This document shows, one piece after another, positions 25,801-32,285 of a stretch of 64,000 nucleotides of DNA (position 1 is its first letter; every line of letters begins with the position of its first letter). Source of the DNA: Escherichia phage SelmaRatti. Location: sequence record MZ501103; one strand, 5' to 3'. The notes under the pieces were generated by a model that was given only the letters and a program-made list of their open reading frames with translations, was not told the origin of the DNA and ran no database searches. The translations under genes and the position numbers were made by a program.

Positions 25801-25872
25801 GCCGTCCTAGTATAATTGGTATTATCAAGCCGTAACTGGTGGAAGATGTAGGTTCGAATCCTACGGTCGGTA
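25801..25872 (+). pseudogene. tRNA-like element, degenerate (no clean anticodon arm)
   Basis: Perfect T-arm GTAGG-TTCGAAT-CCTAC and 6/7 acceptor pairing, but D and anticodon stems do not fold canonically. Confidence 0.35.
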
Positions 25873-28991: not shown

Positions 28992-29075
28992 GCATCGTTG
29001 GCAGAATGGCTATTGCAGCGGTCTGTAAATCCGTGCCCTTCGGGGTTGGTGGTTCAAATCCATCACGATGCACCA
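28992..29075 (+). tRNA. tRNA-Tyr(GTA), long variable arm
   Basis: Acceptor GCATCGT/ACGATGC, anticodon loop CTGTAAA, variable hairpin GCCCTTCGGGGT, T-arm GGTGG-TTCAAAT-CCATC, CCA. Confidence 0.65.
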
Positions 29076-29507: not shown

Positions 29508-29517
29508 CTAAATTTTA

Positions 29518-29600
29518 GGGTCGTTAGCCAAGTGGTTTGGCGGCGGATTGTTAATCCGTGTCGAAAGACAACGTAGGTTCGATTCCTGCACCCGCTGCCA
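29518..29600 (+). pseudogene. tRNA-Asn(GTT)-like, aberrant (about 14-nt extra segment, non-pairing acceptor)
   Basis: D-arm GCCA/TGGC and anticodon arm GCGGA-TTGTTAA-TCCGT fold well, but 3-prime ACCCGCT does not pair with 5-prime GGGTCGT. Confidence 0.4.
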
Positions 29601-29620
29601 TCTTAATAGAGGATTTCGAA

Positions 29621-29785
29621 ATGAAAGTATTTCGATTAGTAGTAAGTGATCGACGTTCTAGCAAAGATCGTTCGAAGTATACCTTAGCCCACTATGGTAA
29701 AGATGAAAAAGAAGTAATGGTGGAGTTTGGGATTAATCATCGCTACTTAGAAGTTTACTCTATTAAGGAAGTTTATCCGTATTAA
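29621..29785 (+). CDS. hypothetical small protein (54 aa) between tRNA genes
   Basis: ATG 29621 after RBS AGAGGA; ORF-track start lies inside the upstream tRNA-like element. Confidence 0.4.
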   Translation: MKVFRLVVSDRRSSKDRSKYTLAHYGKDEKEVMVEFGINHRYLEVYSIKEVYPY

Positions 29786-29863
29786 GGGTCGTTAGCTCAA
29801 TTGGTTAGTAGCACTTGCCTTTTAAGCAATAGGTTGAAGGTTCGAGTCCTTCACTACCCACCA
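29786..29863 (+). tRNA. tRNA-Lys(TTT)
   Basis: Acceptor GGGTCGT/ACTACCC (one mismatch), anticodon loop CTTTTAA, T-arm GAAGG-TTCGAGT-CCTTC, CCA. Confidence 0.65.
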
Positions 29864-29870
29864 AATTTTT

Positions 29871-29944
29871 GCTCGGTTAGTTTAATGGGAGAACCCCGTC
29901 TTTACACGGCGGTTGCGATAGTTCGATTCTATCACCGAGTACCA
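29871..29944 (+). tRNA. tRNA-Val(TAC)
   Basis: Acceptor GCTCGGT/ACCGAGT, anticodon loop TTTACAC, T-arm GATAG-TTCGATT-CTATC, CCA. Confidence 0.6.
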
Positions 29945-29969
29945 ATTAACTCAAAATAAGGAATTGCAA

Positions 29970-30329
29970 ATGCAATTATCAAGCAAGATTCAAGGTTATT
30001 TCGGTCATGTGACAATGGAGTTCGCTATCTCTAAAGGTTGGGATTTCGAGCAAGATCTAGCTGAGTTCTACAAAGATATTGATCTGAACGTACCGTATAT
30101 GGGACTTTCTACTGGTCAGGAGATCACAGAAGCCGATGTATTCAAGGCAAGTCAAGGTGAGATAACACCTAGTTTTGCCACTTTTTGGAGTGGCTTCACA
30201 ATTAAAGAAGAAGCTCCAGATGATGATGTATTTATGCAAAGCATGCACTCTGGGAGTTCTGATATGTTATTTGTTAAAGATGTACGACATATCCAAGAAG
30301 TGGTAAAAACGTATTTGCAAAATGCTTAA
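29970..30329 (+). CDS. hypothetical protein (119 aa)
   Basis: ORF; ATG 29970 after RBS TAAGGAA. Confidence 0.5.
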   Translation: MQLSSKIQGYFGHVTMEFAISKGWDFEQDLAEFYKDIDLNVPYMGLSTGQEITEADVFKASQGEITPSFATFWSGFTIKEEAPDDDVFMQSMHSGSSDMLFVKDVRHIQEVVKTYLQNA

Positions 30330-30876
30330 TTTCTTGTTATAATATTTATATAAATTGATGCGAAAATAGCTGCCTAGATACCAGGTGTATGACGTCTACA
30401 CTAGCAGAGCTACCGAAAAAGAGATCCTCAGGATAAACGTCGTAGCAAAATTAGTCTGGTATCCATCAATTTAGTTCACTAAGGTATTAGCTCGACCTAG
30501 GACTGGCTGCCAAAAAGCACGACCCCTACGACTCGGGAGAAGTTCTAGATTAGTCCACTAGATTCAGCGGCAACTGAATAGTGTATCGGGTTTGTGAAGA
30601 GCGGCTATCCTCTACTGGCTAATGTATGAGGTTAGTACGCACACCGAGCTAATAGCCTTAGTAAACTAAAGAATTTGGGCGAATAGTGTCAGCGGGAGCA
30701 CACCAGACTTGCAATCTGGGAGGGAGGGTTCGAGCCACTCTTTGTCCACCAAATTAAAAAGAATGCGCGCGATTGACGGAATAGGTATACGTGTAAGCCT
30801 TAGAAGTTGAATTTTGAGGGTTCGAATCCCATCGAGGCGTAACTGCCTGGTGTGATAGAGGCATCATCTTATTATT

Positions 30877-30967
30877 GGAAGAGCAAATCGAATTGGCGAC
30901 GAAAACCGCTGGGAAAGTGGCTGACTGGTAAAACGGCTTGAGAGTTCAAATCTCTCCTCTTCCGCCA
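30877..30967 (+). tRNA. type-II-length tRNA-like gene, anticodon unresolved (possibly Ser or Leu)
   Basis: Perfect acceptor GGAAGAG/CTCTTCC and T-arm GAGAG-TTCAAAT-CTCTC with CCA; internal arms not resolved by hand. Confidence 0.45.
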
Positions 30968-30979
30968 AACAATTTATAA

Positions 30980-31074
30980 GGTAGGTCAATCCAACGGCTG
31001 GCGATGGACTCCGACTTGAAATCGGTTGATCGTAGTGATACGGTGTAAGGGTTCGATCCCCTTACCTACCTCCA
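30980..31074 (+). tRNA. tRNA-Ser(TGA)-like, long variable arm
   Basis: Acceptor GGTAGGT/ACCTACC, T-arm AAGGG-TTCGATC-CCCTT, anticodon stem-loop CCGA-CTTGAAA-TCGG, CCA. Confidence 0.55.
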
Positions 31075-31440
31075 AATCTTGAAGTATGCCGGAATCGGTA
31101 GACGGGGCTTCCTAAAGGGCGTAAGGGGAACATCCACTCCTCATAAGATACCCGAAAACGAGGCTGAGATAAATGGTCTATCTCGTGAAGGTTCAAGTCC
31201 TTCTGCTTCTTGATACCTCTATGGCTCAAAGTGTAACGGTGCTATTTGATGCTCTTAGTAAGACTTTCCCGACATGCGTTCGGGGGTAAGCTGCTAAGAC
31301 TAGAGTAGAAGAGTTTCGGAGAGCCGCCACAATTGAAAATTCGTACTCGTCTTGAGCTGCGTGCAATAGGAGATAACTTGATTAGTATTCTAGAACATGC
31401 TAATTGAGGAAGGTTTCTCTAACCCTGCGAGTTTTCAATT

Positions 31441-31531
31441 GTGGCTATATCATAATTGGTTAATGATCCTGATTGTGAATCAGGCCTTCCAAGCCTCGCT
31501 GAGTAGGGTTCGATTCCCTCTAGCAGCTCCA
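31441..31531 (+). tRNA. tRNA-His(GTG)-like with unusually long extra arm
   Basis: D-arm TCAT/ATGA, anticodon arm CCTGA-TTGTGAA-TCAGG, T-loop TTCGATT, CCA; 19-nt variable region and one acceptor mismatch. Confidence 0.45.
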
Positions 31532-31548
31532 ACTTTAAGGAAACATTT

Positions 31549-31770
31549 ATGCACGTTTTTGAGTTTAGTGATAAAAGTAACAATAAACGAGTTATTGTTA
31601 TTGGAGAAACATACCGAGCTTATGAACAAACTGACGGCTCTGTTATCTTGAATGATGAGAAAGCTGGTTTCAGTTTCTATCCTGACGAACCTTATGAAGA
31701 GTTTCGTACTAAGTTTCTTTTACCAGACTGGCTAGCAGTAGCCGAGCAACGAGAATCCAAAGATGGCTGA
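31549..31770 (+). CDS. hypothetical protein (73 aa)
   Basis: ORF with RBS AAGGA immediately after tRNA-like gene. Confidence 0.5.
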   Translation: MHVFEFSDKSNNKRVIVIGETYRAYEQTDGSVILNDEKAGFSFYPDEPYEEFRTKFLLPDWLAVAEQRESKDG

Positions 31771-32285
31771 TAATCTAAAATTAAGGTTGACAAACAAAAG
31801 AAATACGTTGAGGTTGAATTAGGCGAATAACGCTTAAAGCTAACTTTCGAGTTTCTTCAGCAGTTGGCTATGACAGTTATGACTGATAAGTCTCCTGTTA
31901 TTGAAAAAGAAATCCCGTTGAAATAATGGGATCATCGCTCTTAAAGCATTGCCGGAGATGCAACGGTCTTGTAAACCGTGGAACGGGCGTGACAGCAGGA
32001 AGTAGACTGCAACTCCATGCTATCCAGGAGTATAAATGTAGAAGCTAAGACTTTAGATAGCCATTGTCTTAGCGTGAGCAATCACGTAGTTGCAACAGAC
32101 CAGGGGGATCGCAACGTTAAAATCAAAGCTCCTGTACTTATTAAACTTAATGGGACTATCAATCCACAAGCCGGACTACGAGCGATTATCGGGTATTCAC
32201 TTAATAAGCAAGCCTGCCTTCCAGTTTTTATCTTGCTTCTGGGTTAACAAAAAGCTGAGCCAAATTCTAACATCAGGGAGATCTA

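What the first reader, a model, noticed from the sequence alone, without database searches (positions are those of the whole stretch)
29518..29600. Aberrant tRNA-Asn-like gene and long-armed tRNA-His-like gene
Seen in sequence: the Asn-like element has textbook D and anticodon arms (loop TTGTTAA) but an extra segment of about 14 nt before the T-arm and a 3-prime acceptor strand (ACCCGCT) that does not pair with its 5-prime strand (GGGTCGT). The same GGGTCGTTAGC start recurs at tRNA-Lys (29786). The His(GTG)-like gene at 31441-31531 carries a 19-nt extra arm, unexpected for His. Inference: possible recombination or duplication among tRNA genes, producing pseudogenes or non-canonical tRNAs.
Basis: seen in the sequence. 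Interest (0 to 1): 0.45.

Follow-up and report, generated by a model that had tools for sequence, protein, structure and literature searches.

The report
Hybrid tRNA pseudogenes left by deletions
The two odd tRNA-like genes are fusion relics made when a T5-like phage lost the DNA between two neighbouring tRNA genes (Asn joined to Met, His joined to Gly); this is ordinary genome decay in a region known to be deletion-prone, not a new kind of tRNA.

Summary
The window is a T5-like phage (Demerecviridae), about 88-92% identical to known Tequintavirus and Epseptimavirus genomes. The Asn-like element (29518-29600) is the 5' two-thirds of the family's tRNA-Asn(GTT). It is joined, inside a shared 10-nt T-arm stretch (GTAGGTTCGA, 29573-29582), to the 3' end of a tRNA-Met(CAT) gene. 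In five relatives that Met gene lies 1.36-1.70 kb downstream. The genes in between (two small ORFs, tRNA-Asp, tRNA-Pro) are missing, and the acceptor strands no longer pair. The His-like gene (31441-31531) is tRNA-His up to its anticodon stem, joined at CAGGCCT (31481-31487) to tRNA-Gly(TCC) from the anticodon loop onward. Its "19-nt extra arm" is Gly's anticodon loop, stem strand and variable region; 462 bp (one ORF, two tRNA-Gln) are missing. A third fusion (Leu-TAG-like, 30767-30842) and a truncated Thr gene (31937-31988) lie in the same cluster. Neither flagged junction was found in any public collection searched. The 13-nt extra segment of the Asn gene is not part of the damage: it is a conserved, covarying hairpin in intact phage tRNA-Asn genes. 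The hybrids are most likely non-functional. Low interest; a known kind of event.

The parts
29518..29582 (+). Asn-derived part of hybrid 1: 5' acceptor strand GGGTCGT, D arm, anticodon arm (GTT), 13-nt variable hairpin GTCGAAAGACAAC, and the 5' side of the T arm
   Evidence: 95% identical to tRNA-Asn of Salmonella phage GSP044 (L001:1857-1937, E=1.6e-31). Alignments.
29573..29582 (.). Crossover interval of hybrid 1: GTAGGTTCGA, identical in the T arms of parental tRNA-Asn and tRNA-Met
   Evidence: The window follows Asn up to ...GACAAC and follows Met from ...TTCCTGC. Only these 10 nt are shared.
29583..29600 (+). Met-derived part of hybrid 1: rest of the T loop, 3' T stem CCTGC, 3' acceptor strand ACCCGCT, G73, CCA
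   Evidence: Matches the 3' end of tRNA-Met(CAT) in GSP044, oldekolle, HdH2, K37 and S113, and continues collinearly into the ORF that follows Met.
29621..29785 (+). Small ORF (54 aa) that follows tRNA-Met and precedes tRNA-Lys in relatives. It anchors the right side of the deletion.
   Evidence: Window 29573-30360 is 90% identical to S113 L005:2289-3078, which holds Met 3' end, orf95, Lys and Val. Annotation.
31441..31487 (+). His-derived part of hybrid 2: acceptor 5' strand GTGGCTA, D arm, complete anticodon arm (GTG)
   Evidence: 100% identical to tRNA-His of oldekolle and HdH2 through ...TCAGGCCT.
31481..31487 (.). Crossover interval of hybrid 2: CAGGCCT, shared by the His anticodon-stem 3' strand and the Gly anticodon-stem 5' strand
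31488..31531 (+). Gly(TCC)-derived part of hybrid 2: Gly anticodon loop remainder TCCAA, stem strand GCCTC, variable region, T arm, 3' acceptor strand TAGCAGC, U73, CCA. This is the apparent 19-nt 'extra arm' plus the 3' third.
   Evidence: Matches GSP044 tRNA-Gly (L001:5433-5508) and continues into the downstream ORF (31473-31933 vs L001:5450-5910, E=1e-147).
30767..30842 (+). Third hybrid in the same cluster: tRNA-Leu(TAG) 5' part fused at GGGTTCGAATCCC (30818-30830) to a 3' tRNA remnant that lies 79 bp downstream in relatives. The acceptor strands GCGCGAT/CGAGGCG do not pair.
   Evidence: Alignment, size. Rfam scores only 22.1 bits, below threshold.
31937..31988 (+). Truncated tRNA-Thr(TGT): 5' acceptor strand, D arm, anticodon arm and the start of the T stem. 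The T loop and 3' half are lost.
   Evidence: Window sequence compared with oldekolle tRNA-Thr L002:6726-6799. Synteny break.

Best explanation
Both elements are hybrid tRNA pseudogenes. They were created by short-homology (illegitimate or unequal) recombination between conserved segments of two different tRNA genes in the tRNA-rich region of a T5-like phage.

Hybrid 1 joins tRNA-Asn(GTT) to tRNA-Met(CAT) inside the shared T-arm sequence GTAGGTTCGA. About 1.4-1.7 kb is lost: two small ORFs, tRNA-Asp, tRNA-Pro, and in some relatives further genes.

Hybrid 2 joins tRNA-His(GTG) to tRNA-Gly(TCC) at CAGGCCT. About 0.46 kb is lost: one small ORF and two tRNA-Gln genes.

Shown here:
- the chimeric composition of each element;
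- breakpoints that fall in shared sequence;
- loss of the intervening genes;
- intact parental genes in relatives;
- loss of acceptor-stem pairing in hybrid 1, and of synthetase identity elements in hybrid 2.

Inferred:
- The molecular route. It could be replication slippage, RecA-independent short-homology recombination, unequal exchange between co-infecting phages, or repair after cleavage by one of the homing endonucleases common in this region.
- The hybrids are still co-transcribed with their neighbours but are not matured or charged. The phage would then depend on host tRNAs for these codons.
For: 1. Identity of the phage. It is T5-like: 537 related phage records, with the best at 88-92% identity.

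2. Synteny against GSP044.
- 29511-29591 matches Asn and 29573-29849 matches Met 3' end + ORF + Lys; the two matches overlap by 19 nt.
- 30818-31487 ends inside His and 31473-31933 starts inside Gly; these overlap by 15 nt.

3. Base-level alignments with 4-5 relatives place the switches in GTAGGTTCGA and CAGGCCT.

4. Missing DNA. Asn-Met: 1526 bp vs GSP044, 1360 vs oldekolle, 1359 vs HdH2 and K37, 1697 vs S113. His-Gly: 462 bp vs GSP044.

5. The parental genes are canonical.
- Asn acceptor GGGTCGT/ACGGCCC forms 7/7 pairs.
- Asn scores 58.4 bits in Rfam and has a cloverleaf minimum-free-energy fold with z = -3.1.
- His scores 60.9 bits.

6. The hybrids are degraded.
- Rfam scores fall to 41.1 and 40.1 bits.
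- Their minimum-free-energy folds are not cloverleaves, with z = -1.3 and -1.1.
- ARAGORN misses hybrid 1.

7. Identity elements. Bacterial His identity needs C73 (with G-1), and Gly identity needs U73 plus C35 and C36 (PMC9976931). Hybrid 2 has a GUG anticodon with U73 and a G3.A70 mismatch, so it fits neither.

8. The same cluster holds a third fusion and a truncated Thr gene. This shows repeated events of the same type.

9. Literature. The T5 tRNA region is dispensable and repeatedly deleted.
- T5Mos lacks 8 kb and 16 of 23 tRNAs; T5-123 lacks 3 kb; there is a collection of tRNA-region deletion mutants (PMC11464382, which cites Glukhov et al. 2018).
- T5n and SP15m carry ~8-kb deletions (PMC11555353).
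- BF23 lacks 5 of T5's 24 tRNA genes (PMC10644984).
Against: - No expression, processing or charging data exist, so non-functionality is inferred, not shown.
- Hybrid 1 keeps the two bacterial Asn identity elements, anticodon GUU and G73. Its discriminator is G where the Met parent has T in five relatives. This may be coincidence, but it is the change expected if Asn charging were being retained.
- Hybrid 2 still has 6 of 7 acceptor pairs and passes both ARAGORN and the Rfam gathering threshold.
- The retained 5' parts are nearly unchanged: 1 substitution in Asn and 0 in His. That fits a recent event but does not exclude constraint.
- The junctions are seen in this one sequence only, so an assembly error cannot be formally excluded without reads.
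- The left and right flanks of junction 1 resemble different relatives: 97.8% to GSP044 on the left, and 90% to S113 but 77% to GSP044 on the right. The event may therefore have been an unequal exchange between two phages rather than an intragenomic deletion.
Confidence: 0.9

Rival explanations
1. The elements are functional non-canonical tRNAs: an Asn tRNA with an irregular acceptor helix, and a class-II-like His tRNA. Alternatively they are expressed decoys whose intact Asn and His anticodon stem-loops soak up host anticodon nucleases.
For: - Both score above the Rfam tRNA gathering threshold, at 41.1 and 40.1 bits against 29.
- The D, anticodon and T arms are intact.
- Hybrid 1 has GUU plus G73, the bacterial Asn identity set.
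- Hybrid 2 has 6/7 acceptor pairs.
- T5-family tRNAs are known to counter tRNA-targeting defences (PMC11464382, PMC11555353).
Against: - Hybrid 1 has three consecutive acceptor mismatches and no alternative strand.
- Hybrid 2 carries U73 instead of C73. Its 'extra arm' is simply the Gly anticodon hairpin, which competes for the CAGG of the His anticodon stem.
- Both architectures are fully explained as accidental fusion products.
- Neither junction was found in any other sequence searched, so there is no sign of evolutionary retention.
Confidence: 0.05
2. The junctions are assembly or sequencing artefacts, in which an assembler jumped between repeated tRNA segments.
For: Every junction lies in a sequence repeated in several tRNA genes. 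The junctions are unique to this sequence.
Against: - The exact repeats are only 7-13 nt, shorter than usual assembly k-mers (inference from established practice).
- Three or four separate junctions are each collinear with relatives on both sides.
- Natural and laboratory deletions in this region are well documented.
- Relatives themselves carry tRNA remnants, for example the 3' fragment downstream of Leu-TAG.
Confidence: 0.04
3. The elements are ancestral or independent odd tRNA genes (intron-containing, split or permuted) rather than products of deletion.
For: Phage tRNA clusters do contain unusual tRNAs. The native long variable arm of the Asn gene shows that the family tolerates non-standard architecture.
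Against: - ARAGORN with intron search and a lowered threshold gives no sensible call at 29518-29600.
- The 3' parts are near-identical to specific other tRNA genes and their downstream ORFs. Only a fusion explains that.
Confidence: 0.01

Closest known systems
Deletions in the tRNA-rich region of phage T5 and relatives: T5Mos, T5-123, the Glukhov et al. 2018 mutant collection, T5n, SP15m, and natural variation such as BF23
   Same: The same genomic region of the same phage family. tRNA genes and small ORFs are lost without loss of viability, and tRNA complements differ between relatives (PMC11464382, PMC11555353, PMC10644984).
   Different: The published cases I could read are 3-8 kb deletions described by their coordinates. 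Here the deletions are small (0.08-1.7 kb). I show that their end points lie inside tRNA genes and leave fused genes. Whether the published mutants have the same kind of end points could not be checked, because Glukhov et al. 2018 is not held.
Hybrid or chimeric tRNA genes made by unequal or short-homology recombination between tRNA genes, for example deletion mutants of the T4 tRNA cluster and organellar tRNA chimeras (recalled from memory, not verified here)
   Same: A crossover in a conserved tRNA segment gives a gene with the 5' part of one tRNA and the 3' part of another.
   Different: No paper describing this for T5-like phages was found in the searchable library. The resemblance is therefore a lead, not a tested membership.
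Intact T5-family tRNA-Asn(GTT), 82-86 nt, as annotated in GSP044, oldekolle, HdH2, K37 and S113
   Same: Identical 5' strand, D arm, anticodon arm and 13-nt variable hairpin, with one substitution in the D loop.
   Different: The intact genes end ...CCTAC ACGGCCC G CCA and form a 7-bp acceptor stem. The window element ends with the Met gene's ...CCTGC ACCCGCT G CCA.
Class II tRNAs (Ser, Leu, Tyr, Sec), which have variable regions of 10 or more nt (PMC7609411)
   Same: The His-like element superficially has a 19-nt variable region. The Asn gene family has a genuine 13-17-nt hairpin arm.
   Different: The His-like 'arm' is a leftover Gly anticodon hairpin, not an evolved arm. The Asn arm is real, but it sits on a tRNA with an Asn anticodon and G73, which is outside the canonical class II set.

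Membership tests
Functional canonical tRNA (applied to the Asn-like element) | 7-bp acceptor stem formed by the 5' and 3' ends, stacked directly on the T stem | tested here: not met
   GGGTCGT/ACCCGCT has mismatches at 3:70, 4:69 and 5:68. Rfam aligns it only by deleting 3 positions. No alternative adjacent strand exists.
Functional canonical tRNA (applied to the Asn-like element) | D arm, anticodon arm with a 7-nt loop, and T arm with a TTCGA-type loop | tested here: met
   Rfam alignment and fold.
Functional canonical tRNA (applied to the Asn-like element) | Detected by standard tRNA finders | tested here: inconclusive
   Rfam RF00005 gives 41.1 bits against a threshold of 29. ARAGORN does not call it at default or lowered threshold.
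Bacterial tRNA-Asn identity | Anticodon GUU and discriminator G73 (PMC9976931) | tested here: met
   GTT in loop 29548-29554 and G at 29597. This is sequence-level only; charging was not tested.
Bacterial tRNA-His identity (applied to the His-like element) | C73 discriminator (with G-1) and anticodon GUG (PMC9976931) | tested here: not met
   The anticodon GTG is present, but position 73 is T, inherited from Gly (TAGCAGC-T-CCA). Relatives have C73. Position -1 is T in the window and in relatives.
Bacterial tRNA-His identity (applied to the His-like element) | Class I architecture with a 4-5-nt variable region | tested here: not met
   19 nt at 31485-31503. Intact relatives have a short variable region and a gene of 76-77 nt.
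Deletion-derived hybrid tRNA pseudogene | The 5' part is orthologous to tRNA gene A, and the 3' part plus downstream flank is orthologous to a different tRNA gene B | tested here: met
   Asn/Met and His/Gly.
Deletion-derived hybrid tRNA pseudogene | Relatives carry A and B intact and separated, and the genes between them are absent here | tested here: met
   Annotations of GSP044, oldekolle, HdH2, K37 and S113. Gap sizes. No Asp, Pro, Gln or Gly tRNA is found anywhere in the window.
Deletion-derived hybrid tRNA pseudogene | The breakpoint lies in a short sequence shared by A and B | tested here: met
   10 nt GTAGGTTCGA, 7 nt CAGGCCT, and 13 nt GGGTTCGAATCCC for the third case.
Deletion-derived hybrid tRNA pseudogene | The product is not matured or aminoacylated | not testable with these tools
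   Needs tRNA-seq, northern blots, or in-vitro processing and charging assays.
Long-variable-arm (class-II-like) tRNA, applied to the native Asn gene family | A variable region of 10 or more nt forming a hairpin that is conserved and covaries | tested here: met
   12 distinct intact genes have 13-17-nt regions. The stems are GUC/GAC, GUUC/GGAC, AUCC/GGAU, GAC/GUC, GAGC/GUUC, GAGA/UCUC, GGG/CCU, GCC/GGC and GAGC/GCUC. Caveat: the search pattern itself required a 12-20-nt spacer.
Intron-containing, split or permuted tRNA | A canonical cloverleaf is restored after removing an insert or re-joining the halves | tested here: not met
   ARAGORN intron mode gives no call for the Asn-like element. The 3' parts belong to other identifiable genes.

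The most novel reading that the evidence does not exclude
The part of the observation that is not damage may be the novel part. The 13-17-nt hairpin between the anticodon and T arms could mark a distinct class-II-like lineage of tRNA-Asn(GUU, G73). It occurs in T5-like phages and in unrelated phage contigs, and its stem covaries. If it is functional and undescribed, it could be an adaptation, for example to escape host tRNA-targeting nucleases or to change recognition by synthetases or modification enzymes.

A second and less likely reading is that the Asn|Met and His|Gly hybrids are themselves expressed and used, for instance as anticodon-nuclease decoys. I put that at about 0.05.
Probability: 0.3. 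Interest if true: 0.5.

Novelty: new member of a known kind. Interest (0 to 1): 0.17.

Why it matters
The main value is for annotation and for reading phage tRNA repertoires.

- The His|Gly hybrid is called a normal tRNA-His by ARAGORN. Both hybrids pass the Rfam threshold. Automatic pipelines would therefore credit this phage with tRNAs it probably does not have.
- On the tRNA-finder scans, the phage has lost Asn, Asp, Pro, one Met, two Gln, Gly, His, Leu(TAG) and Thr from this stretch. T5-family tRNAs protect against tRNA-cleaving defences such as PARIS, retron-Eco7 and PrrC, so the loss bears on host range.
- The case also shows that conserved tRNA segments (T arm, anticodon stem) act as recombination substrates that erode phage tRNA clusters.
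- It does not reveal a new mechanism.

Tried and rejected
1. Alternative boundaries giving a canonical cloverleaf. No 5' partner for ACCCGCT lies within 140 nt upstream. The 6/7 partners for GGGTCGT downstream are G.U-rich, not adjacent to the T stem, and about as frequent as chance.
2. Intron, split or permuted tRNA. ARAGORN with introns at an 80% threshold gives only implausible calls with long introns.
3. Searching for the same junctions elsewhere.
- Exact and degenerate junction patterns found nothing in IMG/VR.
- Nothing in JGI metagenomes for Asn|Met.
- One hit for the His|Gly pattern turned out to be an unrelated GC-rich bacterial coding region with no tRNA.
- Nothing in GTDB genomes for Asn|Met.
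- BLAST against 50,697 phage records found no record spanning the Asn|Met junction. Every listed His|Gly match was two pieces about 0.6 kb apart.
4. Exact-protein look-ups of three neighbouring small ORFs, to find the source contig or near-identical assemblies. None is on record.
5. The idea that the shared GGGTCGTTAGC means the Asn and Lys genes recombined. Rejected: the Lys allele is an ordinary, host-like allele found in 14 other phage records.
6. The idea that the long-arm Asn family derives from tRNA-Tyr by an anticodon change. Pairwise comparison with the other tRNAs of HdH2 and of the window gave no clear closest relative. Left open.
7. Literature on the break points of T5 deletion mutants. 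Glukhov et al. 2018 is not in the held library. No paper on hybrid tRNA genes in T5-like phages or on long-arm tRNA-Asn was found.
8. My first IMG/VR pattern for Asn genes used a spacer of 20-30 nt, which excludes the T5-type spacer of 19. It returned mainly unrelated canonical Asn genes, so I repeated the scan with a different pattern.

Full report
WHAT THE WINDOW IS

The window is part of a T5-like phage genome (family Demerecviridae).
- A 2.4-kb query around the finding matches 537 phage records, mostly Salmonella, Escherichia and Klebsiella T5-like phages. The best full-length matches are about 88-91% identical.
- A 20-kb stretch downstream is about 92% identical to Tequintavirus genomes such as HdH2, SP15 and STP-SP2.
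- The finding lies in the well-known tRNA-rich region of these phages.
- ARAGORN finds only 10 tRNA genes in the whole window. The same region of relatives carries more than 20.

CHECKING THE OBSERVATION

The Asn-like element runs from 29518 to 29600.
- It has normal D, anticodon (loop TTGTTAA) and T arms.
- It has a 13-nt segment GTCGAAAGACAAC (29560-29572) in front of the T arm.
- Its 3' strand ACCCGCT gives three consecutive mismatches (3:70, 4:69, 5:68) with the 5' strand GGGTCGT.
- ARAGORN does not call it.
- The Rfam tRNA model scores it 41.1 bits, but only by deleting three positions of the 3' acceptor strand.
- No alternative neighbouring strand restores a canonical stem.

The His-like gene runs from 31441 to 31531.
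- ARAGORN calls it a 91-nt tRNA-His(gtg). Rfam scores it 40.1 bits.
- It has 19 nt (31485-31503) between the anticodon stem and the T stem.

WHAT THE ASN-LIKE ELEMENT IS

In five related phages the tRNA-Asn gene has the same 5' strand, D arm, anticodon arm and 13-nt segment. The five are GSP044, oldekolle, HdH2, Kenya-K37 and S113. Their Asn genes end ...GTAGGTTCGAATCCTAC ACGGCCC G CCA, which gives a perfect 7-bp acceptor stem.

The window instead ends ...GTAGGTTCGATTCCTGC ACCCGCT G CCA, followed by TCTTAATAGAGGATTTCGAAATGAAAGTATTTCG.... Apart from two point substitutions, this is the 3' end of a tRNA-Met(CAT) gene plus the start of the small ORF behind it. In the relatives that gene lies 1359-1697 bp downstream of Asn.

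BLAST shows the two matches overlapping by 19 nt.
- 29511-29591 matches Asn (E=1.6e-31).
- 29573-29849 matches Met 3' end, ORF and Lys (E=1e-52).
- The right side is 90% identical over 793 nt to S113.

The window follows Asn up to ...GACAAC and follows Met from ...TTCCTGC. The only shared run is GTAGGTTCGA (29573-29582), so the crossover lies there.

Everything between the two genes in relatives is absent: a 61-aa ORF, tRNA-Asp, a 115-aa ORF and tRNA-Pro. In S113 the interval also holds a homing endonuclease, tRNA-Lys(CTT) and tRNA-Gly(GCC).

WHAT THE HIS-LIKE GENE IS

The first 47 nt are identical to tRNA-His of oldekolle and HdH2 through the complete anticodon arm (...CCTGATTGTGAATCAGGCCT). 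The intact gene then continues ATGTGGATTCGAATTCCAC TAGCCAC C CCA.

The window continues TCCAAGCCTCGCTGAGTAGGGTTCGATTCCCTC TAGCAGC T CCA and then runs into the ORF beginning ATGCACGTTTTTGAG. That is tRNA-Gly(TCC) of GSP044 from its anticodon loop onward, plus its downstream ORF.

The shared sequence is CAGGCCT (31481-31487). It is the 3' strand of the His anticodon stem and the 5' strand of the Gly anticodon stem. Relative to GSP044, 462 bp are missing: the His 3' half, a 66-aa ORF, two tRNA-Gln genes and the Gly 5' half.

The "19-nt extra arm" is therefore the rest of Gly's anticodon loop, its 3' stem strand and its variable region. It is not an evolved variable arm.

THE SAME THING HAPPENED ELSEWHERE IN THE CLUSTER

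- Leu(TAG)-like element, 30767-30842. It is the 5' part of tRNA-Leu(TAG) fused at GGGTTCGAATCCC (30818-30830) to a 3' tRNA remnant. In relatives that remnant sits 79 bp further on. The acceptor strands do not pair, and Rfam gives only 22.1 bits.
- Thr(TGT) fragment, 31937-31988. tRNA-Thr breaks off in its T stem.
- Relatives themselves carry tRNA remnants.

Erosion of this cluster at conserved tRNA segments is therefore recurrent.

ARE THE HYBRIDS FUNCTIONAL?

Probably not. This is inferred, not shown.
- Scores drop. Parent genes score 58.4 bits (Asn) and 60.9 bits (His), and Asn folds into a cloverleaf as its minimum-free-energy structure (z = -3.1). The hybrids score 41.1 and 40.1 bits, and their minimum-free-energy structures are not cloverleaves (z = -1.3 and -1.1).
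- Hybrid 1 lacks an acceptor helix, which is needed for end processing and charging (established tRNA biology).
- Hybrid 1 does keep GUU and G73, the bacterial Asn identity set (PMC9976931). Its discriminator is G where the Met parent has T in all five relatives. I regard this as coincidence but cannot exclude otherwise.
- Hybrid 2 has 6/7 acceptor pairs (G3.A70 mismatch, U2.G71 wobble). It carries U73 from Gly instead of the C73 that His identity requires, and it has a His anticodon instead of the C35/C36 that Gly identity requires.
- In hybrid 2 the intact Gly anticodon hairpin competes with the His anticodon stem for the CAGG segment.

HOW IT MOST LIKELY AROSE

The most likely cause is short-homology recombination between conserved tRNA segments. 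The shared runs are 7-13 nt exact and up to 17 of 19 nt in the T arms.

The route is inferred. Possible routes are:
- replication slippage;
- RecA-independent recombination;
- repair of a break, since homing endonuclease genes are common in this region (one lies between Asn and Asp in S113, and an HNH gene sits next to Thr in HdH2);
- unequal exchange between two co-infecting phages.

The last route is suggested by the flanks of junction 1. The left side is 97.8% identical to GSP044. The right side is only 77% identical to GSP044 but 90% identical to the Epseptimavirus S113.

Context from the literature: the T5 tRNA region is dispensable and repeatedly deleted.
- T5Mos lacks 8 kb and 16 of 23 tRNA genes.
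- T5-123 lacks 3 kb.
- A collection of tRNA-region deletion mutants exists (PMC11464382, citing Glukhov et al. 2018).
- T5n and SP15m carry ~8-kb deletions (PMC11555353).
- BF23 lacks 5 of T5's 24 tRNA genes (PMC10644984).

ARE THE JUNCTIONS SEEN ELSEWHERE?

No.
- No phage record spans the Asn|Met junction. Every listed match to the His|Gly query consists of two pieces about 0.6 kb apart.
- Exact and degenerate junction patterns find nothing in IMG/VR, in JGI metagenomes or in GTDB genomes.
- The single metagenome hit to the short His|Gly pattern is an unrelated GC-rich coding region with no tRNA.

The events are private to this lineage, or to this isolate or assembly. Nothing suggests the hybrids are being retained by selection. 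An assembly artefact cannot be excluded without reads. It is unlikely, given the short repeats and the several independent junctions that are each collinear with relatives.

THE TWO CLUES THAT ARE NOT PART OF THE DAMAGE

1. The extra segment in the Asn gene is native.
- Every intact T5-like tRNA-Asn has it.
- A pattern scan of IMG/VR recovered further tRNA-Asn(GTT) genes with quite different acceptor stems.
- Together these give 12 distinct intact genes, all with G73. In every one, a 13-17-nt region forms a 3-4-bp hairpin, mostly capped by GAAA.
- The stem sequence changes in a compensatory way: GUC/GAC, GUUC/GGAC, AUCC/GGAU, GAC/GUC, GAGC/GUUC, GAGA/UCUC, GGG/CCU, GCC/GGC and GAGC/GCUC.
- Caveat: the search pattern demanded a 12-20-nt spacer and a particular T arm, so this shows the class exists and covaries, not how common it is.
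- Bacterial class II tRNAs are normally only Ser, Leu, Tyr and Sec (PMC7609411). I found no paper describing a long-arm tRNA-Asn.
- This is the most interesting by-product of the work.

2. The GGGTCGTTAGC shared with tRNA-Lys at 29786 is ordinary family resemblance.
- That Lys allele occurs at 98.7% identity in 14 other phage records.
- It is about 85% identical to E. coli tRNA-Lys.
- Canonical phage tRNA-Asn genes also start with GGGTCGTTAGC.

COMPARISON WITH WHAT IS KNOWN, AND NOVELTY

The elements work like hybrid tRNA pseudogenes produced by deletion, and they meet every sequence-level criterion for that class. They fail the defining criteria of functional tRNA-Asn (acceptor stem) and tRNA-His (C73, class I architecture).

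The closest documented phenomenon is the set of natural and laboratory deletions in the T5 tRNA region. Hybrid tRNA genes arising from recombination between tRNA genes, for example in T4 deletion mutants, are recalled from memory only. These are new instances of a known kind of event.

VERDICT

- Confidence in the fusion-by-deletion explanation is 0.9.
- Interest is low (0.17).
- The practical lesson is that standard tRNA finders will over-count this phage's tRNA repertoire.

Noticed in passing
window 29560-29572. Intact examples: L001:1864-1946, L005:534-619, L074:4876-4960, L083:1686-1770, L061:6977-7059, L055:426-511: tRNA-Asn(GTT, G73) genes of T5-like phages and of unrelated IMG/VR phage contigs carry a 13-17-nt hairpin variable arm, mostly capped by GAAA, with compensatory stem changes. 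This is class-II-like architecture on an Asn tRNA. No description was found in the searchable literature.
   Followed up: partly
window 30877-30967: A 91-nt tRNA-like element with a perfect 7-bp acceptor stem (GGAAGAG/CTCTTCC), a T arm (GAGAG-TTCAAAT-CTCTC) and GCCA. Three small hairpins stand in place of recognisable D and anticodon arms. It is nearly invariant in all Tequintavirus relatives examined and is unannotated there. Its two variant positions keep the predicted pairs. Rfam matches only its 3' part, at 24.7 bits.
   Followed up: partly
window 29786-29863: tRNA-Lys(TTT) has a T instead of G in the 3' acceptor strand (ACTACCC instead of ACGACCC). This creates a C5.U68 mismatch relative to the same allele in S113; 14 phage records match at 98.7%, i.e. 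with one difference. In Tequintavirus relatives the Lys allele at this position is quite different (AGATCGC...). That may matter, because T5 tRNA-Lys counters PARIS and PrrC.
   Followed up: partly
window 30767-30842 and 31937-31988: Two more broken tRNA genes lie in the cluster. One is a Leu(TAG)|remnant fusion at GGGTTCGAATCCC with 79 bp missing. The other is a tRNA-Thr(TGT) truncated in its T stem.
   Followed up: yes
window 25801-25872: A tRNA-like element scores 35.5 bits in Rfam but is not called by ARAGORN. Its T arm (GTAGGTTCGAATCCTAC) is identical to that of the intact Asn genes. It has one acceptor mismatch and no convincing anticodon arm. It may be another decayed or hybrid tRNA.
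   Followed up: no
window 30380-30676: About 300 nt of non-coding sequence lies between a promoter-like site (TATAAT ending at 30343) and tRNA-Ala. It is conserved at about 80% in relatives (L001:3749-4119) and has no Rfam match at E<=1. It could be a stable RNA or a leader.
   Followed up: no
window 31085-31215: A conserved non-coding stretch after tRNA-Ser(TGA). It begins like a class II tRNA (GCCGGAATCGGTAGAC...) and ends with a T-arm-like hairpin (GAAGGTTCAAGTCCTTC), but it has no matching acceptor strands. Relatives have it too, so it is probably an old tRNA remnant.
   Followed up: no
window 28992-29075 compared with L001:940-1276: The window has a single tRNA-Tyr where relatives have Tyr-Glu-Trp-Phe. 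Its Tyr allele is too different from that of GSP044 to align by BLAST. Its acceptor stem is perfect, so it is not a hybrid.
   Followed up: no
window 29509-29517 compared with L001:1716-1856: Cys and Asn are 9 nt apart here, as in phages such as Stitch and oselot. GSP044, oldekolle, HdH2 and S113 have a spacer of about 150 nt.
   Followed up: no
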